A stretch of 64,000 nucleotides of DNA, taken from NCBI RefSeq assembly GCF_054482595.1, contig NZ_CM137008.1. The stretch is one strand, 5' to 3'. The notes beneath the pieces were generated by a model, which was not told the DNA's origin, searched no databases, and was given only the letters and a program-made list of their open reading frames with translations. The translations under genes and the position numbers were made by a program. Below, piece by piece: positions 36,328-54,400 of the stretch. Numbering within the stretch: the first letter of the stretch is position 1; each line of letters starts with the position of its first letter.

Positions 36328-38727
36328 ATGAAGCTAACCGATGCGGATAATGCCGCCGATGGCATTTTTTTCCCCGCCCTTGAGCAAAATATGATGGGTG
36401 CGGTGTTAATTAACGAAAATGATGAAGTGATGTTTTTCAACCCCGCCGCAGAGAAGCTCTGGGGGTACAAACGTGAAGAAGTCATTGGCAATAACATTGA
36501 TATGCTGATTCCGCGGGATTTGCGTCCTGCGCATCCTGAATACATTCGTCATAACCGTGAAGGCGGTAAAGCGCGCGTCGAGGGGATGAGTCGGGAGCTG
36601 CAGCTGGAGAAAAAAGACGGCAGTAAAATCTGGACCCGTTTTGCGCTATCAAAAGTGAGCGCCGAGGGGAAAGTTTATTACCTGGCGCTGGTACGGGATG
36701 CCAGCGTAGAAATGGCGCAAAAAGAACAGACCAGGCAATTGATTATTGCCGTTGACCATCTCGACCGACCGGTGATTGTCCTCGATCCGGAACGCCATAT
36801 TGTGCAGTGCAATCGCGCATTTACCGAAATGTTTGGTTACTGCATTAGCGAAGCCAGCGGTATGCAGCCCGATACACTCCTGAACATTCCTGAATTCCCT
36901 GCCGATAACCGCATTCGTTTACAACAGTTGCTATGGAAAACCGCCCGCGATCAGGACGAATTTCTGCTGTTGACGCGCACCGGTGAAAAAATCTGGATTA
37001 AAGCTTCTATCAGCCCGGTTTATGACGTGCTCGCGCATCTGCAGAACCTGGTAATGACCTTCTCGGATATCACCGAAGAACGGCAAATCCGCCAGCTTGA
37101 AGGCAATATTCTCGCCGCCATGTGCAGCAGCCCGCCATTTCATGAAATGGGGGAAATCATTTGTCGTAATATCGAATCTGTTCTCAACGAATCGCATGTT
37201 TCGCTGTTCGCACTGCGCAACGGGATGCCGATACACTGGGCGTCATCTTCCCACGGTGCAGAAGTTCAAAATGCGCAAAGCTGGTCAGCGACCATTCGTC
37301 AGCGTGATGGCGCGCCTGCGGGGATCCTGCAAATTAAAACCTCGTCAGGAGCAGAAACCAGCGCCTTTATCGAACGCGTGGCAGATATCAGCCAGCATAT
37401 GGCCGCGCTGGCGCTGGAACAGGAAAAAAGCCGTCAGCATATTGAACAACTCATCCAATTTGATCCGATGACCGGTCTGCCAAATCGCAATAACCTGCAC
37501 AATTACCTCGATGACCTGGTCGACAAAGCCGTCTCTCCGGTGGTGTATCTCATCGGTGTTGACCATATTCAGGATGTGATTGATAGCCTTGGCTATGCGT
37601 GGGCCGATCAGGCATTGCTGGAAGTGGTCAATCGCTTTCGTGAAAAACTCAAACCGGATCAGTATCTCTGTCGTATCGAAGGTACGCAGTTTGTCCTCGT
37701 GAGCCTGGAAAACGACGTCAGTAACATTACCCAAATCGCCGATGAGCTACGGAATGTGGTCAGCAAGCCGATAATGATTGACGATAAACCCTTCCCGCTT
37801 ACCTTGAGTATTGGCATCAGCTACGACGTGGGTAAAAACCGCGATTACCTGCTCTCCACTGCTCACAATGCAATGGATTATATTCGCAAGAATGGCGGTA
37901 ACGGCTGGCAGTTCTTCAGCCCGGCGATGAACGAAATGGTAAAAGAGCGTTTGGTTTTAGGCGCAGCGCTGAAAGAGGCGATTAGCAATAACCAACTGAA
38001 ACTGGTTTACCAGCCGCAAATCTTCGCAGAAACGGGTGAACTGTACGGCATCGAAGCCCTTGCTCGCTGGCACGATCCCCAGCATGGTCATGTGCCCCCT
38101 TCACGGTTTATTCCTCTCGCAGAAGAGATTGGTGAAATCGAAAATATTGGGCGCTGGGTCATCGCGGAAGCTTGCCGTCAGTTAGCAGAATGGCGTAGCC
38201 AGAATATTCATATCCCGGCGTTATCCGTGAACTTGTCGGCGCTGCACTTTCGCAGTAATCAACTGCCTAATCAGGTGTCTGATGCAATGCAAGCCTGGGG
38301 TATTGACGGCCACCAGCTGACGGTGGAAATCACGGAAAGCATGATGATGGAACACGATACCGAAATCTTTAAGCGCATTCAGATCCTGCGTGATATGGGC
38401 GTGGGTTTATCGGTAGATGATTTTGGCACGGGCTTTTCCGGATTATCCCGCTTAGTCAGTCTTCCGGTAACGGAAATCAAAATTGACAAAAGTTTTGTCG
38501 ATCGTTGTCTGACGGAAAAACGCATCCTTGCCTTACTTGAAGCCATTACCAGCATTGGGCAAAGCCTCAATTTAACCGTCGTGGCGGAAGGCGTCGAAAC
38601 CAAAGAGCAATTTGAGATGCTACGTAAGATCCACTGTCGAGTTATTCAGGGATATTTCTTTTCCCGCCCCCTACCCGCCGAAGAAATTCCAGGCTGGATG
38701 AGCAGCGTGTTACCGCTGAAAATCTGA
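36328..38727 (+). CDS. dosP: Haem-PAS c-di-GMP phosphodiesterase, oxygen sensor (799 aa)
   Basis: PAS domains, degenerate GGDEF and EAL domain; track ORF begins 8 codons upstream, I chose MKLTDADNAADG. Confidence 0.9.
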   Translation: MKLTDADNAADGIFFPALEQNMMGAVLINENDEVMFFNPAAEKLWGYKREEVIGNNIDMLIPRDLRPAHPEYIRHNREGGKARVEGMSRELQLEKKDGSKIWTRFALSKVSAEGKVYYLALVRDASVEMAQKEQTRQLIIAVDHLDRPVIVLDPERHIVQCNRAFTEMFGYCISEASGMQPDTLLNIPEFPADNRIRLQQLLWKTARDQDEFLLLTRTGEKIWIKASISPVYDVLAHLQNLVMTFSDITEERQIRQLEGNILAAMCSSPPFHEMGEIICRNIESVLNESHVSLFALRNGMPIHWASSSHGAEVQNAQSWSATIRQRDGAPAGILQIKTSSGAETSAFIERVADISQHMAALALEQEKSRQHIEQLIQFDPMTGLPNRNNLHNYLDDLVDKAVSPVVYLIGVDHIQDVIDSLGYAWADQALLEVVNRFREKLKPDQYLCRIEGTQFVLVSLENDVSNITQIADELRNVVSKPIMIDDKPFPLTLSIGISYDVGKNRDYLLSTAHNAMDYIRKNGGNGWQFFSPAMNEMVKERLVLGAALKEAISNNQLKLVYQPQIFAETGELYGIEALARWHDPQHGHVPPSRFIPLAEEIGEIENIGRWVIAEACRQLAEWRSQNIHIPALSVNLSALHFRSNQLPNQVSDAMQAWGIDGHQLTVEITESMMMEHDTEIFKRIQILRDMGVGLSVDDFGTGFSGLSRLVSLPVTEIKIDKSFVDRCLTEKRILALLEAITSIGQSLNLTVVAEGVETKEQFEMLRKIHCRVIQGYFFSRPLPAEEIPGWMSSVLPLKI

Positions 38728-38924
38728 CAAATTCCTCTCGCCCGCACTCGCGGGTTTTCATTTAACGTGACACTGTCACTTAAATACTGTGATTTCAGCT
38801 ACGATTCCGGGAGATTCCTTCCTTAACTTCCCCTCTTGCACCAAAACTGCACTACGCTGCACAAATGTTGATCAAAAGTTAAAAAATATAACTTTAAGCC
38901 AGCATTCTGGCGCTTATCCCGGCA

Positions 38925-38941
38925 TGGCATGAGATCTGCAT
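38925..38941 (+). promoter_or_regulatory. Candidate sigma-54 promoter (TGGCAT-N5-CTGCAT) for the ddp operon
   Basis: GG and GC elements with correct spacing about 45 bp upstream of ddpX; NtrC-like half-site TGCACCA at approx 38837-38863. Confidence 0.5.
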
Positions 38942-38984
38942 AAGCGGAAAGCGCAGCAATTTTTGTCTTATACAGGAACCGTTT

Positions 38985-39566
38985 ATGTCGGATACCACCG
39001 AACTGGTTGATTTAGCCGTGATCTTCCCTGATCTGGAGATCGAATTGAAATACGCCTGCGCTGATAACATCACAGGTAAAGCTATTTATCAGCAAGCGCG
39101 TTGTCTGTTACACAAGGATGCGATTACCGCGCTGGCGAAAAGTATCAGTATCGCCCAGCTCTCAGGCTTACAACTGGTGATTTACGATGCGTACCGCCCA
39201 CAACAAGCACAGGCGATGTTGTGGCAAGCCTGCCCAGACCCGCAATATGTTGTTGATGTGACGGTCGGTTCTAATCACAGCCGTGGCACGGCGATCGACC
39301 TGACGCTTCGTGATGAGCACGGGAACATCCTCGATATGGGCGCAGGGTTCGATGAAATGCACGAGCGCTCCCATGCCTATCACCCTTCCGTCCCGCCCGC
39401 CGCTCAGCGCAATCGCCTGTTGCTGAATGCGATAATGACTGGTGGCGGTTTTGTCGGTATCTCCAGCGAATGGTGGCACTTCGAATTACCCCAGGCAGCG
39501 AGTTACCCACTGCTCGCTGATCAATTCACCTGTTTTATATCCCCTGGCACACAGCACGTCAGTTAA
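38985..39566 (+). CDS. ddpX: D-Ala-D-Ala dipeptidase, VanX homologue (193 aa)
   Basis: Size and family sequence; first gene of the ddp operon. Confidence 0.9.
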   Translation: MSDTTELVDLAVIFPDLEIELKYACADNITGKAIYQQARCLLHKDAITALAKSISIAQLSGLQLVIYDAYRPQQAQAMLWQACPDPQYVVDVTVGSNHSRGTAIDLTLRDEHGNILDMGAGFDEMHERSHAYHPSVPPAAQRNRLLLNAIMTGGGFVGISSEWWHFELPQAASYPLLADQFTCFISPGTQHVS

Positions 39567-39579
39567 TCAGGAAACTGTC

Positions 39580-41130
39580 ATGAAAAGATCGATATCGTTT
39601 CGTCCTACATTGCTCGCGCTCGTCCTTGCCACAACTTTCCCGGTTGCGCACGCCGCCGTACCGAAAGATATGCTGGTGATTGGTAAGGCCGCCGATCCAC
39701 AAACCCTCGACCCGGCGGTAACAATAGATAATAACGACTGGACGGTGACCTACCCGTCTTATCAGCGGCTGGTTCAGTACAAAACGGACGGTGATAAAGG
39801 CTCAACCGACGTTGAAGGCGATCTGGCGAGTGGCTGGAAAGCGTCTGACGATCAAAAAGAGTGGACGTTCACCCTGAAGGACAATGCTAAATTTGCCGAT
39901 GGCACACCCGTCACTGCCGAAGCAGTAAAACTCTCTTTTGAGCGGTTACTAAAAATCGGCCAGGGGCCAGCAGAAGCATTTCCCAAAGATTTAAAGATTG
40001 ATGCTCCCGACGAACATACGGTGAAGTTTACCCTTAGCCAGCCATTTGCACCGTTCCTCTACACGCTGGCGAATGACGGTGCATCCATTATCAATCCGGC
40101 GGTGTTAAAGGAACATGCGGCGGATGATGCCCGCGGCTTCCTCGCGCAAAATACCGCCGGTTCCGGACCATTTATGCTGAAAAGCTGGCAAAAAGGTCAG
40201 CAATTAGTTCTGGTGCCAAATCCGCATTACCCTGGCAATAAACCGAACTTTAAGCGAGTATCGGTAAAAATTATTGGTGAAAGTGCCTCCCGTCGCCTGC
40301 AGCTCTCCCGTGGCGACATTGACATTGCCGATGCGCTGCCGGTGGATCAACTCAACGCCCTGAAGCAGGAAAATAAAGTCAATGTGGCAGAGTATCCGTC
40401 ACTGCGCGTCACCTATCTGTATCTGAATAACAGCAAAGCGCCACTTAATCAGGCGGATCTGCGGCGGGCCATTTCCTGGTCTACCGATTATCAGGGCATG
40501 GTTAACGGCATTCTGAGTGGTAACGGAAAACAGATGCGCGGCCCGATTCCGGAAGGCATGTGGGGCTACGATGCGACGGCAATGCAATACAACCATGACG
40601 AAACGAAAGCCAAAGCTGAATGGGATAAAGTGACGAACAAACCCACCAGCCTGACGTTTCTCTATTCTGATAATGATCCGAACTGGGAGCCTATTGCTCT
40701 GGCGACACAATCCAGTCTCAACAAGCTGGGCATCAATGTGAAGCTGGAAAAGCTGGCGAACGCCACCATGCGCGACAGAGTGGGTAAAGGTGATTACGAC
40801 ATTGCGATTGGCAACTGGAGTCCGGATTTTGCCGACCCGTATATGTTTATGAATTACTGGTTTGAGTCAGACAAAAAAGGTCTGCCGGGTAACCGCTCGT
40901 TCTATGAAAACAGTGAGGTCGATAAGTTACTGCGCAATGCGCTCGCGACCACCGACCAGACGCAGCGTACCCGGAACTACCAGCAGGCACAGAAAATCGT
41001 CATTGATGACGCTGCTTATGTGTACCTGTTCCAGAAAAACTACCAACTGGCGATGAACAAAGAGGTGAAAGGCTTTGTGTTCAATCCCATGCTGGAACAG
41101 GTCTTCAATATCAATACCATGAGTAAATAA
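39580..41130 (+). CDS. ddpA: Dipeptide ABC transporter periplasmic binding protein (516 aa)
   Basis: Signal peptide MKRSISFRPTLLALVLATTFPVAHA; family 5 solute-binding protein; track ORF starts 46 codons upstream. Confidence 0.9.
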   Translation: MKRSISFRPTLLALVLATTFPVAHAAVPKDMLVIGKAADPQTLDPAVTIDNNDWTVTYPSYQRLVQYKTDGDKGSTDVEGDLASGWKASDDQKEWTFTLKDNAKFADGTPVTAEAVKLSFERLLKIGQGPAEAFPKDLKIDAPDEHTVKFTLSQPFAPFLYTLANDGASIINPAVLKEHAADDARGFLAQNTAGSGPFMLKSWQKGQQLVLVPNPHYPGNKPNFKRVSVKIIGESASRRLQLSRGDIDIADALPVDQLNALKQENKVNVAEYPSLRVTYLYLNNSKAPLNQADLRRAISWSTDYQGMVNGILSGNGKQMRGPIPEGMWGYDATAMQYNHDETKAKAEWDKVTNKPTSLTFLYSDNDPNWEPIALATQSSLNKLGINVKLEKLANATMRDRVGKGDYDIAIGNWSPDFADPYMFMNYWFESDKKGLPGNRSFYENSEVDKLLRNALATTDQTQRTRNYQQAQKIVIDDAAYVYLFQKNYQLAMNKEVKGFVFNPMLEQVFNINTMSK

Positions 41131-41131
41131 C

Positions 41132-42154
41132 GTGACCTTCTGGAGTATTTTACGCCAACGCTGCTGGGGGCTGGTGCTCGTGGTGGCGGGCGTCTGCGTG
41201 ATTACGTTTATTATCTCGCATCTGATCCCCGGCGATCCGGCGCGGTTACTGGCGGGTGACCGCGCCAGCGATGCTATCGTGGAAAATATTCGCCAGCAAC
41301 TGGGACTGGACCAGCCACTGTATGTACAGTTTTACCGCTACGTCAGCGACCTGTTTCATGGTGACCTGGGAACATCCATTCGTACCGGGCGTCCGGTGCT
41401 GGAAGAGTTGCGTATATTTTTCCCGGCGACGCTGGAGCTGGCTTTTTGTGCCCTGCTGCTGGCACTCTTGATTGGCATCCCGCTGGGCATACTCTCTGCA
41501 GTCTGGCGAAATCGCTGGCTGGATCATCTGGTGCGAATAATGGCCATTACCGGAATCTCCACACCTGCGTTCTGGCTTGGACTGGGCGTCATTGTGCTGT
41601 TTTATGGTCATCTGCAAATTCTTCCCGGCGGCGGAAGGCTTGATGACTGGCTGGATCCACCAACGCACGTTACCGGCTTTTATCTGCTCGATGCGCTGCT
41701 TGAAGGCAACGGTGAAGTATTCTTCAATGCGTTGCAACATCTCATCTTACCGGCATTAACGCTGGCGTTCGTTCACCTGGGAATTGTCGCTCGCCAGATC
41801 CGCTCAGCGATGCTGGAACAATTGAGTGAAGACTACATTCGTACCGCCCGGGCCAGCGGCTTGCCCGGCTGGTATATCGTTTTATGTTATGCGCTACCCA
41901 ATGCGTTGATCCCATCGATTACCGTATTGGGTCTGGCGCTGGGCGATTTGTTGTATGGCGCAGTGCTCACCGAAACCGTTTTTGCCTGGCCCGGAATGGG
42001 GGCATGGGTAGTGACATCAATACAGGCGCTCGACTTCCCTGCGGTGATGGGATTTGCCGTCGTGGTTTCGTTTGCTTATGTGCTGGTCAACCTGGTAGTG
42101 GATTTGCTCTATTTGTGGATTGATCCGCGTATCGGACGTGGAGGTGATGAATGA
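41132..42154 (+). CDS. ddpB: Dipeptide ABC transporter permease (340 aa), GTG start
   Basis: DppB-like permease with EAA loop region. Confidence 0.9.
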   Translation: MTFWSILRQRCWGLVLVVAGVCVITFIISHLIPGDPARLLAGDRASDAIVENIRQQLGLDQPLYVQFYRYVSDLFHGDLGTSIRTGRPVLEELRIFFPATLELAFCALLLALLIGIPLGILSAVWRNRWLDHLVRIMAITGISTPAFWLGLGVIVLFYGHLQILPGGGRLDDWLDPPTHVTGFYLLDALLEGNGEVFFNALQHLILPALTLAFVHLGIVARQIRSAMLEQLSEDYIRTARASGLPGWYIVLCYALPNALIPSITVLGLALGDLLYGAVLTETVFAWPGMGAWVVTSIQALDFPAVMGFAVVVSFAYVLVNLVVDLLYLWIDPRIGRGGDE

Positions 42155-43047
42155 TGCTAAGCGAGGAAACGTCCGCCGTACGCCCAGCAAAACAAACGCG
42201 ATTTAACGGTGCAAAACTGGTATGGATGCTGAAAGGCAGTCCGCTCACCGTGACCGGCGCAGTCATCATTGTATTAATGCTATTGATGATGATTTTTTCA
42301 CCGTGGCTTGCGACGCATGATCCCAACGCCATTGATTTAACCGCCCGCCTTTTGCCGCCTTCTGCGGCGCACTGGTTTGGCACCGATGAAGTGGGACGCG
42401 ATCTGTTCAGCCGCGTACTGGTCGGCAGTCAGCAATCAATTCTCGCCGGATTAGTCGTGGTTGCCATTGCGGGTATGATTGGTTCGCTACTCGGATGTCT
42501 ATCCGGTGTGCTTGGCGGACGCGCAGACGCCATCATCATGCGCATCATGGACATTATGCTGTCGATTCCTTCGTTGGTACTGACAATGGCACTGGCTGCC
42601 GCTCTCGGGCCGAGTTTATTTAACGCCATGCTGGCGATTGCTATTGTGCGAATTCCCTTTTATGTGCGCCTGGCGCGGGGGCAAGCATTAGTTGTACGCC
42701 AGTATACCTATGTTCAGGCGGCGAAAACCTTTGGTGCGTCGCGTTGGCATCTGATCAGCTGGCATATTTTACGTAACTCCCTGCCGCCGCTGATCGTGCA
42801 GGCATCGCTGGATATCGGTAGCGCGATTTTAATGGCCGCCACGTTGGGATTTATTGGCCTGGGTGCTCAACAACCGAGTGCTGAATGGGGCGCGATGGTA
42901 GCAAATGGTCGCAACTATGTACTCGATCAGTGGTGGTATTGCGTATTTCCGGGGGCAGCGATTTTGCTTACCGCCGTCGGGTTTAATCTCTTTGGTGATG
43001 GTATTCGCGATCTGCTTGACCCGAAAGCAGGAGGAAAGCAGTCATGA
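42151..43047 (+). CDS. ddpC: Dipeptide ABC transporter permease (298 aa)
   Basis: DppC-like permease; 4-bp overlap with ddpB. Confidence 0.9.
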   Translation: MMLSEETSAVRPAKQTRFNGAKLVWMLKGSPLTVTGAVIIVLMLLMMIFSPWLATHDPNAIDLTARLLPPSAAHWFGTDEVGRDLFSRVLVGSQQSILAGLVVVAIAGMIGSLLGCLSGVLGGRADAIIMRIMDIMLSIPSLVLTMALAAALGPSLFNAMLAIAIVRIPFYVRLARGQALVVRQYTYVQAAKTFGASRWHLISWHILRNSLPPLIVQASLDIGSAILMAATLGFIGLGAQQPSAEWGAMVANGRNYVLDQWWYCVFPGAAILLTAVGFNLFGDGIRDLLDPKAGGKQS

Positions 43048-44030
43048 CCCAACCCGTTCTGGACATTCAACAGCTGCATTTGAGTTTCCCCGGTTTTAAC
43101 GGTGATGTTCACGCGCTCAACAATGTGTCCTTGCAGATTAACCGCGGTGAAATTGTCGGTCTGGTGGGAGAATCCGGCTCAGGTAAATCAGTCACCGCAA
43201 TGCTGATTATGCGTCTGCTACCGACGGGCAGTTATTGCGTACATCGGGGGCAGATTTCACTGCTGGGAGACGATGTTCTTAACGCTCGGGAAAAACAGCT
43301 TCGTCAGTGGCGCGGCGCACGAGTGGCGATGATCTTTCAGGAACCGATGACCGCCCTCAATCCGACACGTCGAATAGGTCTTCAGATGATGGACGTGATC
43401 CGCCATCATCAACCAATAAGCCGTCGGGAAGCCAGAGCTAAAGCGATTGACCTGCTGGAAGAGATGCAAATCCCGGATGCCGTGGAAGTTATGTCGCGCT
43501 ATCCGTTTGAGCTTTCAGGTGGTATGCGCCAGCGGGTAATGATTGCGCTGGCATTCTCCTGCGAGCCGCAATTGATTATTGCCGACGAACCGACTACGGC
43601 GCTGGACGTCACGGTACAGTTGCAGGTACTGCGTTTGCTTAAACATAAAGCCCGCGCCAGTGGAACTGCGGTACTGTTCATCAGCCATGATATGGCCGTG
43701 GTATCGCAACTGTGCGATAGCGTTTACGTGATGTATGCCGGAAGCGTAATTGAAAGCGGCGTGACGGCAGACGTTATCCATCATCCCCGGCATCCGTATA
43801 CCATTGGTTTGCTGCAATGCGCACCAGAACATGGAGTACCACGCCAGCCATTACCCGCCATTCCAGGGACGGTACCAAACCTCACCCATTTGCCTGACGG
43901 CTGCGCTTTTCGCGATCGTTGCTATGCGGCAGGTGCACAGTGTGAAAACGTCCCGGCGCTGACAGCGTGTGGTGACAACAACCAGCGCTGCGCCTGTTGG
44001 TATCCGCAGCAGGAGGTCATAAGTGTCTGA
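43044..44030 (+). CDS. ddpD: Dipeptide ABC transporter ATPase (328 aa)
   Basis: Walker A GESGSGKS, signature LSGGMRQR. Confidence 0.9.
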   Translation: MTQPVLDIQQLHLSFPGFNGDVHALNNVSLQINRGEIVGLVGESGSGKSVTAMLIMRLLPTGSYCVHRGQISLLGDDVLNAREKQLRQWRGARVAMIFQEPMTALNPTRRIGLQMMDVIRHHQPISRREARAKAIDLLEEMQIPDAVEVMSRYPFELSGGMRQRVMIALAFSCEPQLIIADEPTTALDVTVQLQVLRLLKHKARASGTAVLFISHDMAVVSQLCDSVYVMYAGSVIESGVTADVIHHPRHPYTIGLLQCAPEHGVPRQPLPAIPGTVPNLTHLPDGCAFRDRCYAAGAQCENVPALTACGDNNQRCACWYPQQEVISV

Positions 44031-44949
44031 CACGTTATTAACGTTACGCGACGTCCATATCAATTTCCCGGCCCGTAAAAACTGGCTTGGTAAAACTACG
44101 GAACATGTTCATGCCATTAATGGTATTGATTTACAGATCCGCCGTGGTGAAACCTTAGGGATCGTCGGCGAGTCAGGCTGCGGCAAAAGCACCCTCGCAC
44201 AGCTTTTAATGGGTATGCTGCAACCGAGCCACGGGCAATACATCCGTTCTGGCTCACAACGCATTTTGCAGATGGTGTTTCAGGACCCGCTCTCTTCGCT
44301 CAATCCGCGCTTACCGGTGTGGCGCATCATCACAGAACCGCTCTGGATAGCTAAGCGTAGTAGTGAACAACAGCGGCGAGCGTTGGCAGAGGAGCTGGCT
44401 GTGCAGGTGGGTATTCGTCCGGAGTATCTCGACCGCCTGCCTCATGCGTTCTCCGGCGGGCAGCGGCAACGCATCGCCATTGCCAGAGCACTCTCTTCGC
44501 AGCCTGACGTGATTGTGCTTGATGAGCCAACCTCAGCGCTGGATATCTCCGTGCAGGCGCAGATCCTCAATTTACTGGTAACGCTACAGGAAAATCACGG
44601 GCTGACTTATGTGCTGATTTCACACAATGTCTCGGTGATACGTCATATGAGCGATCGGGTGGCGGTGATGTATCTCGGGCAGATTGTGGAATTAGGGGAA
44701 GCGCAACAGGTGCTAACGGCTCCGGCACATCCATACACCCGATTATTGCTGGATTCTCTCCCCGCCATTGATAAACCGCTGGAGGAAGAATGGGCATTAC
44801 GTAAAACGGATCTGCCGGGAAACCGCACGTTGCCGCAAGGCTGTTTTTTCTACGAACGTTGCCCTCTGGCAACCCACGGATGTGAAGTCCGGCAATCATT
44901 AGCAATAAGGGAGGACGGACGTGAGCTCCGGTGCTGGCGGGCGCTGTAG
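44023..44949 (+). CDS. ddpF: Dipeptide ABC transporter ATPase (308 aa)
   Basis: Walker A GESGCGKST, signature FSGGQRQR. Confidence 0.9.
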   Translation: MSDTLLTLRDVHINFPARKNWLGKTTEHVHAINGIDLQIRRGETLGIVGESGCGKSTLAQLLMGMLQPSHGQYIRSGSQRILQMVFQDPLSSLNPRLPVWRIITEPLWIAKRSSEQQRRALAEELAVQVGIRPEYLDRLPHAFSGGQRQRIAIARALSSQPDVIVLDEPTSALDISVQAQILNLLVTLQENHGLTYVLISHNVSVIRHMSDRVAVMYLGQIVELGEAQQVLTAPAHPYTRLLLDSLPAIDKPLEEEWALRKTDLPGNRTLPQGCFFYERCPLATHGCEVRQSLAIREDGRELRCWRAL

Positions 44950-45004
44950 AGATGCTAACAACGCATCAGGCATTCACGCGCCTGACGCGTCATCCGGCAA
45001 TGCT

Positions 45005-45436
45005 TTACGATTTCAACTGGTAATCCAGCGTAATTTCCGCTTTCAGTACCTGAGAGACCGGGCATCCTGCTTTTGCTTTCTGGATGATGCCGTCAAAGGT
45101 AGAGGCATCAATACCCGGCACCGCAACTTCACTCTTCAGTGCGATTTTCGTAATCGCAAAACCGGCATCCACTTTATCCAGCGACACATCGGCGGTGGTA
45201 TCAATCGATGTTGGCGTAAATCCCGCTTCCCCCAGCATTAATGAAAGCGCCATTGAGAAACATGCGGCATGCGCTGCGCCAATCAGTTCTTCAGGGTTAG
45301 TTCCTTTTTCGCCTTCAAAACGCGTGTTAAATCCATACGGCTGTTGGTTCAGCACACCACTCTCGGTGGATACTGTTCCCTTCCCGCGTTTGATATCGCC
45401 TTCCCAGTGTGCCTGACCTTTCTTATGGATTGTCAT
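45005..45436 (-). CDS. osmC: Osmotically inducible peroxiredoxin OsmC (143 aa)
   Basis: Translation MTIHKKGQAHWEGDIKRGKGTVSTESGVLNQQPYGFNTRFEGEKGTNPEELIGAAHAACF... Confidence 0.93.
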   Translation of the reverse strand: MTIHKKGQAHWEGDIKRGKGTVSTESGVLNQQPYGFNTRFEGEKGTNPEELIGAAHAACFSMALSLMLGEAGFTPTSIDTTADVSLDKVDAGFAITKIALKSEVAVPGIDASTFDGIIQKAKAGCPVSQVLKAEITLDYQLKS

Positions 45437-51436: not shown

Positions 51437-54400
51437 TTACGCCTTCTCGATGTTGACTAAGAACGCTTTATATTCCGGCGTTTGCGAGTTTGCATCACCG
51501 ACATTCGGCGTCAGAGTGTTAGCGATATAACCTTTACGCGCGACACCCTCAAAGCCCCAGTGGATTGGAATACCCACCGTTTCAACCTGCTGACCATTTA
51601 CATTCAGTGGTTTCAGACGACGCGTTACCACAGCCACCGCGCGGATAAAGCCACGCTTGCTTGAGACAGTGACACGATCGCCATTATTAATGCCTTTCGC
51701 CGCCGCCAGCGTTTCGCTGATTTCCACAAACTGTTCCGGCTGAGCAATTGCGTTGAGCAATGCGTGCTTGGTCCAGGTGTGGAAGTGCTCGGTCAGACGA
51801 TAGGTCGTACCCACATACGGGAACTGCTCTTTTTTACCCATCCGCAGTGCGTCTTGTTCATACAGACGAACAACCGGGTTAGACACCACGTTCGGATGCA
51901 GCGGGTTAGTGCCCAGCGGCGTTTCAATCGGCTCGTAGTGTTCCGGGAACGGACCTTCCGCCATTTTGTTGATGGCAAACAGGCGTCCCATCCCTTCCGG
52001 CTGCATGATAAACGGCCCGGTTGGCGTACCCGGTGCGGCATTGCCGAAGTCAGGAATATCGTTACCCGTCCACTTGCTGCCGTTCCACTGGATCAGCATC
52101 CGTTTCGGATCCCACGGTTTACCGTTGATATCCGCCGAAGCACGGTTGTACAGCACGCGACGGTTGAGCGGCCACGCCCAGGCCCATCCCAGCGTATTCC
52201 CCAGACCGGACGGGTCGGAGTTATCGCGGTTAGCCATCTGGTTGCCCTGCTCTGTCCAGCTACCGGTGTAGATCCAGCAAGAAGATGCGGTTGTACCGTC
52301 ATCACGCAGATGCGCAAAGCTACTCAGCAACTGACCTTTCTTCGCAATCAGCACGCCATTAGCATCATAGAGATCTTCCAGCGCATAGCCGTTGTTCTCT
52401 TTAGCTACTTCGTCAGATTGCGGTTCGTGCGGCTGCTTGTAGTTCCAGCTCATCTTCATCAGCGGTTCTACGCCTTTACCACCTTCGGCCTGGTACAGCT
52501 CGCGCAGGTGATGGTAGATACCCGCCAGAATTTCACCGTCGTTACGCGCTTCGCCCGGCGCATCCTGACCTTTCCAGTGCCACTGCAGCCAGCGACCGGA
52601 GTTAGCAATAGAACCATCTTCTTCAGCAAAGCAGGTCGAAGGCAGACGGAATACTTCAGTCTGAATAGACGCCGGATCGACATCGTTCGACTCGCCGTGG
52701 TTCTGCCAGAAGGTTGAGGTTTCAGTCACCAGCGGATCGATAACCACCATGTACTTCAGCTTGCTTAGGCAGCTCACCACTTTGTTTTTGTCCGGGAAGG
52801 ACGCAACCGGGTTAAAGCCCTGGCAGAAATAACCGGTGACTTTGCCTTCATCCATCATGTTGAAATACTTGATGACGTCGTAGGTCTGGTCCCACTTCGG
52901 CAGCCAGTCATAGCCCCAGTTGTTCTCTTTCTGCGCGGCATCGCCATAGAAAGATTTCATCAGGCTAACGAAGAACTTCGGATAGTTGCTCCAGTAGTTC
53001 ACCTGACCAGCCAGCGTCGCTTTCGGCGTGTTCGCTTCCAGATACGACTGCAAATCAACCTGTTTTTCTGACGGCAGCGTCAGATAACCTGGCAGGCTGG
53101 TAGAGAGCAGACCTAAGTCAGTCAGACCCTGAATGTTGGAGTGACCACGCAATGCATTCACGCCGCCACCGGCCATACCCATGTTACCGAGCAGCAACTG
53201 GATCATCGCCATAGTACGGATGTTCTGCGCACCCACGGTGTGCTGCGTCCAGCCCAGCGCGTACAGGAAGGTGGTTGTGCGATTCGGTGCGCTGGTGGAG
53301 GCCAGCACTTCACACACTTTCAGGAAGTCGGCTTTTGGCGTACCACAGATGTTTTCAACAACGTCCGGCGTGTAGCGGGAAACGTGCGCTTTCAGCAGGT
53401 TCCACACACAGCGCGGATGAGTCAGTGTTTCATCGCGTTTCGCATAGCCGTTTTCATCGAACTGATAGTTCCAGGACGATTTATCGTATTGCCGTTTTTC
53501 AGCGTCGTAGCCGCTGAACAGACCGTCTTCGAAAGCAAAATCATCACGCACCAGCAGGCTGGCGTTGGTGTAATGCTTAACGTATTCGGCGTTGATTTTG
53601 TCGTTTTCGATCAGGTAGCGCAAAACGCCAGACAGGAACGTAATGTCCGTACCGGAACGAATAGGTGCGTAAATATCCGCCACAGAAGCGGTACGCGTAA
53701 AACGAGGATCGACAACGATCAAGGTTGCATCGTTGTTGTTTTTCGCTTCCATCGCCCAGCGGAAACCGACGGGATGCGCTTCAGCAGCGTTACCGCCCAT
53801 TACCATTACGACGTTAGCGTTTTTGATATCCACCCAGTGGTTGGTCATCGCACCGCGACCAAATGTTGGAGCAAGACTTGCTACCGTTGGTCCGTGTCAG
53901 ACGCGCGCCTGGTTGTCTACCGCCAGCATCCCGAGGGAGCGGGCAAATTTCTGTGTCAGCATCCCGGTTTCGTTGCTGGCACCGGAGGCACACAGCATAC
54001 CGGTAGAAAGCCAACGGTTTACCGTTACGCCCTGCTCGTTCTTTTCAATAAAGTTAGCGTCACGGTCAGCTTTCATCAGCTTTGCAATACGGGAGAATGC
54101 TTCTTCCCAGCTAATGCGCTGCCATTTGTCAGAACCTGGCGCACGATATTCCGGGTAGCGCAGACGGTTTTCGCTGTTGACGTAATCCAGCAAACCGGCC
54201 CCTTTTGGGCACAGCGCACCACGGCTTACCGGATGATCCGGGTCACCTTCAATGTGATAAATCGCTTCTCTGGCGTTTTTCGCGCCATCACCCAGGCTAT
54301 ACATCAATAGCCCGCAACCTACGGAACAGTATGTGCAGGTGTTACGGATCTCTTTAGCGCGTAATAATTTGTAGTTTCGCGCCTGAGCCAGTGCTTGCTT

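What the first reader, a model, noticed from the sequence alone, without database searches (positions are those of the whole stretch)
38837..44949. ddp operon appears to be driven by a sigma-54 promoter: VanX-like dipeptidase fused to a dipeptide ABC importer
TGGCAT-N5-CTGCAT (approx 38925-38941) matches the -24/-12 sigma-54 consensus, and a TGCACCA NtrC-like half-site lies about 80 bp upstream. Six tightly coupled genes follow, with 4-bp and 8-bp overlaps. This supports nitrogen-limitation control of D-Ala-D-Ala scavenging. The promoter call is a sequence match, not a demonstrated site.
Basis: partly seen in the sequence, partly recalled or inferred. Interest (0 to 1): 0.4.

Follow-up and report, generated by a model that had tools for sequence, protein, structure and literature searches.

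The report
Known sigma-54/NtrC promoter of ddpXABCDF

Summary
The window is E. coli chromosome (dosC-dosP-ddpXABCDF-osmC). TGGCAT-N5-CTGCAT is at 38925-38941, as stated. Predicted start is 38951, 34 nt before the ddpX ATG at 38985. TGCACCA is at 38837-38843. Six genes follow with 4-, 4- and 8-bp overlaps.

A loose consensus match is not significant on its own. A sigma-54 matrix built without the ddpX site ranks it first of 127,968 window positions. TGGCA and TGC are invariant in 65 of 65 orthologous promoters from a dozen or more enterobacterial genera, while the spacer varies.

- a sigma-54 ChIP-seq peak on exactly this 17-mer;
- an NtrC ChIP-seq peak;
- gSELEX and gel shifts with NtrC and RpoN holoenzyme;
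- about 100-fold ddpX induction on nitrogen depletion.

Two refinements:
- The half-site belongs to two degenerate NtrC-like boxes (38837-38853 and 38858-38874). Their counterparts in other genera are near-consensus palindromes.
- Outside Escherichia the same promoter drives a seven-gene operon that starts with a SapR/RpiR-like regulator gene. Escherichia lacks that gene.

About a fifth of complete E. coli genomes lack the whole unit.

Verdict: observation confirmed, interpretation supported, already known, low interest.

The parts
38740..38764 (+). Terminator-like hairpin (GCCCGC-ACTC-GCGGGT) plus T-rich tail, 13 nt after the dosP stop codon. It separates the dosCP unit from ddp.
   Evidence: Pattern scan. 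RNA fold -11.4 kcal/mol, z = -3.1.
38837..38853 (+). Distal NtrC-like box, TGCACCAAAACTGCACT. It has 5 mismatches to TGCACCAnnnTGGTGCA. Its centre is about -106 from the predicted start.
   Evidence: Conserved in Escherichia, Citrobacter, Enterobacter and Mixta. This stretch is also the second-best sigma-54 matrix hit in the window (38835-38851, 12.9 bits, lacks GG).
38858..38874 (+). Proximal NtrC-like box, TGCACAAATGTTGATCA. It has 4 mismatches to the consensus. Its centre is about -85, 21 bp (two helical turns) from the distal box.
   Evidence: The homologous position carries boxes with 2-3 mismatches in Raoultella, unnamed Enterobacteriaceae and Serratia. The T-G-C and T-T-G columns are invariant or nearly so across 32 aligned promoters. 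Chance expectation for 4 or fewer mismatches in 200 nt is 0.07.
38875..38905 (.). A+T-rich spacer between the boxes and the promoter (AAAGTTAAAAAATATAACTTTAAG...). It may be a bend that helps looping. It is about 11 bp shorter than in Citrobacter and Enterobacter.
   Evidence: Sequence. Box-to-promoter distances are 58 versus 68-70 nt. The bend or IHF role is inference only and was not tested.
38925..38941 (+). Sigma-54 core promoter TGGCAT-GAGAT-CTGCAT, with the -24 GG at 38926-38927 and the -12 GC at 38938-38939.
   Evidence: Published sigma-54 ChIP-seq site OS16. gSELEX and gel shift.
38951..38951 (+). Predicted transcription start. It is 19 nt downstream of the motif centre, 12 nt after the C of the -12 GC, and 34 nt before the ATG.
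   Evidence: Prediction rule and the 34-nt distance come from PMC4591121. Not experimentally mapped in any source read.
38974..38977 (+). AGGA ribosome-binding site, 7 nt before the ddpX ATG.
   Evidence: Sequence. The last ~27 nt before the ATG align with the spacer between the regulator gene and ddpX in Citrobacter.
38985..39566 (+). ddpX, a VanX-type zinc D-Ala-D-Ala dipeptidase (193 aa).
   Evidence: Pfam PF01427, E = 4e-79. Aligns to VanX 1R44 with SxHSRGxAIDLT and EWWH conserved. RefSeq annotation.
39580..41130 (+). ddpA, periplasmic substrate-binding protein (family 5).
   Evidence: PF00496, E = 1.5e-100. Annotation.
41132..42154 (+). ddpB, permease.
   Evidence: PF00528 and PF19300. 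Annotation.
42151..43047 (+). ddpC, permease. Overlaps ddpB by 4 bp.
   Evidence: PF00528 and PF12911. Annotation.
43044..44030 (+). ddpD, ATPase. Overlaps ddpC by 4 bp.
   Evidence: PF00005 and PF08352. Annotation.
44023..44949 (+). ddpF, ATPase. Overlaps ddpD by 8 bp.
   Evidence: PF00005 and PF08352. Annotation.
44945..45010 (.). Stable hairpin filling the 55-nt gap between the convergent ddpF and osmC genes. Probable end of both transcripts.
   Evidence: RNA fold -25.5 kcal/mol, z = -3.6. It has no T-run, so the simple terminator scan did not list it.

Best explanation
Window 38837-44949 is the E. coli ddpXABCDF transcription unit with its known NtrC-activated sigma-54 promoter.

Proposed mechanism:
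1. RNA polymerase carrying sigma-54 sits as a closed complex on TGGCAT-N5-CTGCAT (38925-38941) under all conditions.
2. On nitrogen limitation, phosphorylated NtrC (GlnG) assembles on an upstream element. That element is most likely the two degenerate TGCAC boxes centred near -106 and -85.
3. NtrC contacts the polymerase by DNA looping across an A+T-rich spacer and uses ATP to open the promoter. Transcription is predicted to start near 38951.
4. The mRNA encodes a cytoplasmic VanX-type D-Ala-D-Ala dipeptidase and an Opp/Dpp-type ABC importer.
5. The cell can therefore take up D-Ala-D-Ala released from peptidoglycan, split it, and obtain ammonium and pyruvate from D-alanine through the separately encoded D-amino-acid dehydrogenase.

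Shown experimentally, in published work: sigma-54 occupancy of this exact motif; NtrC occupancy of the region; binding of both proteins in vitro; strong induction by nitrogen depletion.

Shown here: exceptional matrix score, cross-genus invariance of the -24 and -12 elements, and homology of the upstream boxes to near-consensus NtrC boxes elsewhere.

Inferred: the exact start site, which boxes NtrC uses, looping and bending, and the physiological substrate flow.
For: - Identity of the locus.
- Motif and geometry.
- Leave-one-out matrix rank 1 of 127,968 positions.
- Sigma-54 ChIP-seq site OS16 with the identical 17-mer.
- NtrC ChIP-seq peak.
- gSELEX, gel shift with NtrC and RpoN holoenzyme, and RT-qPCR (104.5-fold for ddpX).
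- TGGCA and TGC invariant in 65 of 65 orthologous promoters, with a variable spacer.
- High-scoring sigma-54 motifs (13.8-17.9 bits) also lie upstream of ddpX homologues that lack the regulator gene, in Erwinia endophytica, [Erwinia] mediterraneensis, a Pantoea species and an Enterobacterales metagenome-assembled genome.
- Burkholderia cenocepacia ddpX and its transporter are sigma-54/NtrC dependent.
- The upstream boxes are homologous to boxes with 2-3 mismatches in other genera.
- Terminator-like hairpin after dosP.
- No sigma-70-type promoter match in the intergenic region.
- Protein families and catalytic motifs.
Against: - E. coli has no NtrC palindrome with 3 or fewer mismatches upstream of ddpX. 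The two boxes have 4 and 5 mismatches. One 5-mismatch hit per 200 nt is not unusual (0.43 expected).
- The NtrC ChIP-seq bin corresponds to window 38904-38984. That lies over the promoter, not the boxes. The same offset is seen for glnK, glnH, nac and astC, so the data do not resolve the binding site.
- No mapped 5' end was found.
- ddpF rose only 2.2-fold while ddpX rose 104.5-fold, and an RpoD gSELEX study lists an internal promoter at ddpA/ddpB. The six genes are therefore not expressed as one uniform unit.
- ddpXA also depend on RpoS in stationary phase, which this mechanism does not explain.
Confidence: 0.93

Rival explanations
1. The operon is mainly driven by a stationary-phase (RpoS) or housekeeping sigma-70-type promoter, and the sigma-54 site contributes little.
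For: ddpXA transcripts depend on RpoS in E. coli O157:H7 EDL933 (PMC2907692). From my own knowledge, Lessard et al. 1998 (Chem Biol) reported RpoS-dependent stationary-phase expression of ddpX; I could not read that paper here.
Against: No -35/-10 match was found in 38650-39050. The RpoD-holoenzyme gSELEX lists only an internal site at ddpA/ddpB, not the ddpX upstream region. The ~100-fold nitrogen response and sigma-54/NtrC binding are direct. The RpoS effect could be indirect. As an additional input this is plausible (about 0.3); as the main driver it is unlikely.
Confidence: 0.05
2. The TGCAC cluster at 38837-38874 is not the NtrC enhancer. It is a second, weak sigma-54 binding site or the target of another protein, and NtrC acts from elsewhere or from solution.
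For: 38835-38851 is the second-best sigma-54 matrix hit in the window (12.9 bits). [quoted passage not shown] The boxes are poor NtrC matches.
Against: The site lacks the GG that is invariant in all 65 orthologous promoters. The homologous position in other genera is a good NtrC palindrome and is not sigma-54-like, for example TGCACCTTCTTTGTGCA. NtrC alone shifts a probe containing it. The spacing and distance are typical of NtrC enhancers (established knowledge of glnAp2).
Confidence: 0.1
3. The motif is a chance or non-productive sigma-54 binding site. Many ChIP-seq sites are not promoters, and ddp would then be transcribed by read-through from dosCP.
For: The loose consensus alone is not significant in 64 kb. 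Bonocora et al. stress that binding sites need not be promoters.
Against: The site has the right orientation and sits 34 nt from the first gene. It is rank 1 of 127,968 positions and is conserved across genera. Nitrogen-dependent induction is about 100-fold. A terminator-like hairpin follows dosP.
Confidence: 0.02

Closest known systems
E. coli K-12 ddpXp, the sigma-54/NtrC promoter of ddpXABCDF (b1488-b1483). It is listed in EcoCyc/RegulonDB and mapped by ChIP-seq in PMC4591121.
   Same: It is the same locus. The 17-mer ATGGCATGAGATCTGCA is identical, the distance to ddpX is the same, and so are the genes and neighbours.
   Different: Nothing of substance. The window comes from a strain 100% identical over the operon to XH990 and others, and about 98% identical to a spread of other E. 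coli complete genomes.
Classical NtrC-activated sigma-54 promoters: glnAp2, glnHp2, glnK, nac, astC.
   Same: GG-N10-GC core; activator sites about 80-140 bp upstream on the same helical face; induction on nitrogen limitation. These promoters appear in the same ChIP-seq tables.
   Different: From established knowledge, glnAp2 has two strong near-consensus NtrC palindromes. The ddpX boxes have 4 and 5 mismatches and keep mainly the TGCAC left halves.
Seven-gene sapR-like-ddpXABCDF operons of Citrobacter, Enterobacter, Serratia, Pantoea, Raoultella, Brenneria and others, and the SapR-adjacent ddpX-like cluster of Burkholderia pseudomallei.
   Same: Orthologous ddpXABCDF genes in the same order. 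The sigma-54 promoter and upstream boxes are homologous. Nitrogen/NtrC control of ddpX is also reported in B. cenocepacia.
   Different: There the promoter is followed by conserved TTGTTA-N5-TAACA-type repeats and a ~289-aa RpiR/SapR-like regulator gene before ddpX. Escherichia lacks both. In B. pseudomallei the neighbouring ddp-like genes fall in a sapR mutant.
VanX of the enterococcal vanHAX vancomycin-resistance operon.
   Same: Same M15D dipeptidase fold and the same zinc and catalytic motifs.
   Different: VanX is controlled by VanRS and serves resistance by removing D-Ala-D-Ala. DdpX is linked to an importer and to nitrogen-starvation control, which points to a nutritional role.

Membership tests
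Sigma-54 (RpoN)-dependent promoter | GG and GC doublets exactly 10 nt apart within TGGCAC-N5-TTGCW, oriented towards the gene. | tested here: met
   TGGCAT-GAGAT-CTGCAT at 38925-38941. 15.8 bits in a matrix trained without it, rank 1 of 127,968.
Sigma-54 (RpoN)-dependent promoter | Conservation of the -24 and -12 elements at orthologous loci while flanks and spacer drift. | tested here: met
   TGGCA and TGC are invariant in 65 of 65 promoters, 30 distinct 17-mers, a dozen or more genera.
Sigma-54 (RpoN)-dependent promoter | Occupancy by sigma-54 holoenzyme. | not testable with these tools
   Published: ChIP-seq site OS16 with fold-above-threshold 10; gSELEX and gel shift.
Sigma-54 (RpoN)-dependent promoter | Expression requires rpoN and an enhancer-binding ATPase. 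| not testable with these tools
   Published RT-qPCR in wild type and in rpoN and ntrC mutants; the authors conclude that activation needs both. I did not see the numerical mutant values for ddpX.
Sigma-54 (RpoN)-dependent promoter | Transcription start about 12 nt downstream of the GC. | not tested
   Only predicted (38951). No mapped 5' end was found in the papers read.
NtrC (GlnG) enhancer | One or more 17-bp palindromes TGCACCAnnnTGGTGCA about 80-150 bp upstream. | tested here: inconclusive
   No match with 3 or fewer mismatches. The best are 4 mismatches (38858-38874) and 5 (38837-38853), 21 bp apart. Homologous boxes in other genera have 2-3 mismatches.
NtrC (GlnG) enhancer | NtrC binding and nitrogen-limitation response. 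| not testable with these tools
   Published NtrC ChIP-seq, 24-fold enrichment, and a gel shift on a probe spanning 38653-39062. The resolution is too low to assign the boxes.
VanX/DdpX D-Ala-D-Ala dipeptidase (MEROPS M15D, Pfam PF01427) | Full-length match to the family profile, with His-Asp-His zinc ligands and a catalytic Glu. | tested here: met
   PF01427 at 265 bits versus a cut-off of 27. SNHSRGTAIDLT and EWWH align with the corresponding VanX 1R44 motifs. Residue roles come from established VanX knowledge.
Opp/Dpp-type peptide ABC importer | A family-5 binding protein, two permeases, and two ATPases with the oligo_HPY C-terminal extension. | tested here: met
   PF00496; PF00528 twice; PF00005 plus PF08352 twice.
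Opp/Dpp-type peptide ABC importer | Substrate is D-Ala-D-Ala. | not testable with these tools
   Inferred from the linkage to ddpX, which is conserved in about 66 of the 80 species loci, and from the annotation 'D,D-dipeptide ABC transporter'.

The most novel reading that the evidence does not exclude
The Escherichia ddp promoter is the remnant of an ancestral seven-gene operon: sigma-54 promoter, operator-like TTGTTA/TAACA repeats, a SapR/RpiR-like regulator gene, then ddpXABCDF. A deletion of roughly 0.9 kb, starting right after the -12 element, removed the pathway-specific regulator and its presumed operator. E. coli ddp is therefore left under general nitrogen (NtrC) control alone. I found no description of this in the searchable literature.
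Probability: 0.7. Interest if true: 0.3.

Novelty: already known. Interest (0 to 1): 0.1.

Why it matters
For the finding as stated, it matters little. The ddp operon has been cited as NtrC-regulated since 2000. Its sigma-54 site has been mapped genome-wide and bound in vitro. The proposed experiment (wild type versus rpoN and ntrC mutants under nitrogen limitation) has largely been done at the mRNA level.

Two things remain open. No published 5' end or NtrC footprint was found. Why do weak, half-palindromic boxes suffice?

The comparative result adds modest value. It shows that sigma-54 control of D-Ala-D-Ala salvage is ancient and widespread in Enterobacterales. It also shows that E. coli is an atypical, regulator-less version of the system, which is relevant when K-12 is used as the reference for this pathway.

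Tried and rejected
- Searched for a canonical NtrC palindrome with up to 3 mismatches. None lies upstream of ddpX; the two window hits are elsewhere and below chance.
- Scanned 38650-39050 for a sigma-70-type promoter. None was found, so there is no sequence support for an RpoS or RpoD promoter.
- Ran Rfam over the whole window. Nothing turned up in the ddp region.
- Folded the predicted 5' UTR. It is no more stable than shuffles, so a leader structure is not supported.
- Tried to use the NtrC ChIP-seq bin to locate the enhancer. Rejected, because the bins sit on the promoters even at glnK, glnH, nac and astC.
- Tried to read Reitzer & Schneider 2001 (PMC99035) and Zimmer et al. 2000. Neither is held. 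Those papers and Lessard et al. 1998 are cited only from memory or second hand.
- Compared 38870-38882 by eye with the IHF consensus WATCAANNNNTTR. There are two mismatches, so I did not pursue it.
- My first scan of 400 nt upstream of ddpX homologues gave low sigma-54 scores in most genera. That was misleading: an extra gene lies in between, and the promoter is upstream of it.
- I first assumed the whole window was collinear with strain XH990. That is wrong for positions 1-11291.


Full report
**What the locus is**

- Window 38600-45100 is 100% identical to several complete E. coli chromosomes, and all or part of it matches 5,410 of 5,426 complete E. coli genomes.
- RefSeq annotation of an identical genome gives dosC, dosP, ddpX, ddpA, ddpB, ddpC, ddpD, ddpF, then convergent osmC, then bdm, sra and maeA.
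- Pfam agrees:
  - DdpX is a Peptidase_M15 D-Ala-D-Ala dipeptidase (E = 4e-79).
  - DdpA is a family-5 binding protein.
  - DdpB and DdpC are permeases.
  - DdpD and DdpF are ATPases with the oligopeptide-type C-terminal domain.
- DdpX aligns to VanX (PDB 1R44) with the SxHSRGxAIDLT and EWWH motifs intact.

**Checking the observation**

- The sequence reads TGGCAT (38925-38930), GAGAT, CTGCAT (38936-38941). TGCACCA is at 38837-38843, 88 bp upstream.
- 'Fused' is true only in the sense of one operon.
- A degenerate consensus match is not significant in 64 kb: 1 found against 0.51 expected.
- I built a log-odds matrix from the 41 other intergenic sense sigma-54 ChIP-seq sites in Table 1 of PMC4591121 and scanned both strands.
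  - The ddpX site scores 15.8 bits, the best of 127,968 positions.
  - The runner-up scores 12.9 bits.
  - The ddpX score sits in the middle of the range for genuine sites.

**What is already published**

- Bonocora et al. 2015 list site OS16. It is a sigma-54 ChIP-seq peak with the motif ATGGCATGAGATCTGCA, and its predicted start is 34 nt upstream of ddpX. EcoCyc marked it as predicted. That is exactly window 38924-38940, with a predicted start at 38951.
- Brown et al. 2014 report a 24-fold NtrC ChIP-seq peak at ddpXABCDF in nitrogen-starved cells. They cite earlier expression evidence.
- Shimada et al. 2021 recovered the site by genomic SELEX.
  - NtrC alone, RpoN holoenzyme alone, and both together shifted a probe that I mapped to window 38653-39062 from their primers.
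  - They measured 104.5-fold (ddpX) and 2.2-fold (ddpF) increases on nitrogen depletion, in an experiment that included rpoN and ntrC mutants.

**Independent comparative test**

- I fetched 80 loci encoding DdpX relatives from species-representative genomes.
- The ddpXABCDF order is conserved in Citrobacter, Enterobacter, Lelliottia, Mixta, Pantoea, Brenneria, Serratia, Raoultella, Rahnella, Lonsdalea and others.
- Scanning directly upstream of ddpX gave good sigma-54 scores only in Escherichia and a few Erwiniaceae. In 64 loci a ~289-aa gene lies immediately upstream of ddpX.
- Scanning upstream of that gene finds a sigma-54 motif of 12.5-18.6 bits, 50-59 nt from its start (70 nt in Serratia), in all 64 loci. 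One of the 64 was confirmed by eye.
- Across the 65 promoters, T-G-G-C-A and T-G-C are invariant, while the spacer and flanks give 30 distinct 17-mers. This is a clear phylogenetic footprint of the -24 and -12 elements.
- In Burkholderia cenocepacia, ddpX and its transporter are also sigma-54/NtrC dependent.

**The upstream element**

- E. coli has no canonical NtrC palindrome with 3 or fewer mismatches here.
- The stretch TTGCACCAAAACTGCACTACGCTGCACAAATGTTGATCA (38836-38874) is identical in Citrobacter amalonaticus. It is nearly so in Citrobacter and Enterobacter generally.
- It contains two box-like 17-mers:
  - 38837-38853, with 5 mismatches to TGCACCAnnnTGGTGCA.
  - 38858-38874, with 4 mismatches.
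  - Their centres are 21 bp apart, at about -106 and -85.
- At the position homologous to the proximal box, other genera carry much better palindromes:
  - TGCACCTTCTTTGTGCA and TGCACCGATTTTGTGCA, 2 mismatches (a Raoultella species, Enterobacter sp. 10-1 and an unnamed enterobacterium).
  - TGCCCAAATGTTGTGCA, 3 mismatches (Serratia).
  - Pantoea has two boxes about 31 bp apart.
- A box with 2 or fewer mismatches is expected 0.0006 times per 200 nt. A box with 4 or fewer is expected 0.07 times.
The proximal box is the more widely conserved one, and assignment to NtrC in E. coli rests on low-resolution binding data.
- The published NtrC ChIP bins sit on the core promoters even at glnK, glnH, nac and astC. 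They cannot discriminate between candidate sites.

**Mechanism**

- Closed-complex sigma-54 holoenzyme sits at 38925-38941.
- NtrC-phosphate oligomerises on the boxes at about -106 and -85 and loops across an A+T-rich spacer.
- ATP-dependent opening follows, with a start near 38951, an AGGA ribosome-binding site at 38974-38977 and the ATG at 38985.
- A terminator-like hairpin after dosP (38740-38755 plus a T-run; -11.4 kcal/mol, z = -3.1) argues against read-through from dosCP.
- A strong hairpin fills the ddpF-osmC gap (-25.5 kcal/mol, z = -3.6).
- The products import and cleave D-Ala-D-Ala. Release of ammonium from D-alanine by D-amino-acid dehydrogenase is established E. coli biochemistry, not tested here.

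**Caveats and rivals**

- ddpXA are RpoS-dependent in stationary phase.
  - No sigma-70-type promoter match exists in the intergenic region.
  - The RpoD SELEX study lists only an internal ddpA/ddpB site.
  - I treat RpoS as a possible extra or indirect input.
- The large difference between ddpX and ddpF induction shows that tight coding overlap does not mean uniform expression.
- The second-best matrix hit in the window (38835-38851) overlaps the distal box and lacks GG. It may explain the extra holoenzyme bands reported, or it may only reflect the similarity of TGCAC to both consensus sequences.

**What Escherichia lacks**

- The extra upstream gene in other genera carries an RpiR-type HTH.
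- It matches NCBIfam NF046014 'SapR' at 380-425 bits, below the 500-bit equivalog cut-off.
- In B. pseudomallei, sapR is the neighbour of a ddpX-like gene, and that gene and the adjacent ABC genes fall in a sapR mutant.
- Downstream of the -12 element, the non-Escherichia promoters share TTGTTA-N5-TAACA and TGACAG-N5-TAACA repeats. These are a candidate operator.
- E. coli aligns with Citrobacter up to TGCAT, and again over the last ~27 nt before the ddpX ATG, but not in between.
- No complete E. coli genome contains DNA resembling the Citrobacter gene.
- The simplest reading is a deletion in the Escherichia lineage.
- No paper in the searchable library mentions ddpX together with RpiR.

**Population note**

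About 1,140 of 5,410 E. coli complete genomes (for example NC101 and GmF052) lack window 38804-44960. That stretch covers the boxes, the promoter and all six genes. About 70 nt of unrelated sequence sits there between dosP and osmC.

**Verdict**

The feature is real and already known. The comparative refinements are new to me but modest. Interest is 0.1.

Noticed in passing
L015:6117-6986 (Citrobacter amalonaticus) and 63 other loci; absent from window 38942-38984: Outside Escherichia, a ~289-aa RpiR/SapR-like regulator gene lies between the conserved sigma-54 promoter and ddpX. It matches NCBIfam SapR at 380-425 bits, below the 500-bit cut-off. Escherichia lacks the gene, and no complete E. 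coli genome has similar DNA.
   Followed up: yes
L015:6063-6115 and the aligned columns of alignment A1: The non-Escherichia promoters share TTGTTA-N5-TAACA and TGACAG-N5-TAACA repeats just downstream of the -12 element. These are a candidate operator for the SapR-like regulator and are missing in E. coli.
   Followed up: partly
window 38804-44960: About a fifth of complete E. coli genomes (for example NC101 and GmF052) lack this whole stretch: upstream boxes, promoter and ddpXABCDF. They carry ~70 nt of unrelated sequence between dosP and osmC instead.
   Followed up: partly
window 38835-38851: CTTGCACCAAAACTGCA is the second-best sigma-54 matrix hit in the 64-kb window (12.9 bits) although it lacks the GG. 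It overlaps the distal NtrC-like box. A published gel shift showed several RpoN-holoenzyme bands on a probe covering it.
   Followed up: partly
window 38985-44949: Published RT-qPCR shows ddpX up 104.5-fold but ddpF only 2.2-fold on nitrogen depletion. An RpoD SELEX study lists an internal promoter at ddpA/ddpB. Expression along the 'tightly coupled' operon is therefore uneven.
   Followed up: no
window 9961-11291: A 1.33-kb IS3-family element (IS2-like) interrupts the fimbrial usher gene relative to strain XH990. It has two overlapping transposase ORFs (HTH_Tnp_1 and rve), 32-nt imperfect terminal inverted repeats and an apparent 5-bp target duplication.
   Followed up: partly
window about 7769: Relative to strain XH990, the window lacks about 880 bp just downstream of hipA. 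In XH990 that stretch holds an HTH pseudogene and the start of a fimA-like gene.
   Followed up: no
window 53844-53902 (- strand): Rfam SECIS_3 selenocysteine insertion element (84 bits) inside fdnG. This is expected for formate dehydrogenase-N.
   Followed up: no
L041, L046, L049, L075 (upstream of ddpX homologues without a sapR-like gene): Strong sigma-54 motifs (13.8-17.9 bits) lie 39-155 nt upstream of ddpX homologues that have no sapR-like gene upstream. Three of them (L041, L046, L075) also lack a detectable ddpA-F downstream; L049 has the full ddpABCDF. The loci come from Erwinia endophytica, [Erwinia] mediterraneensis, a Pantoea species and an Enterobacterales metagenome-assembled genome. 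This suggests sigma-54 control is kept in different gene arrangements.
   Followed up: no
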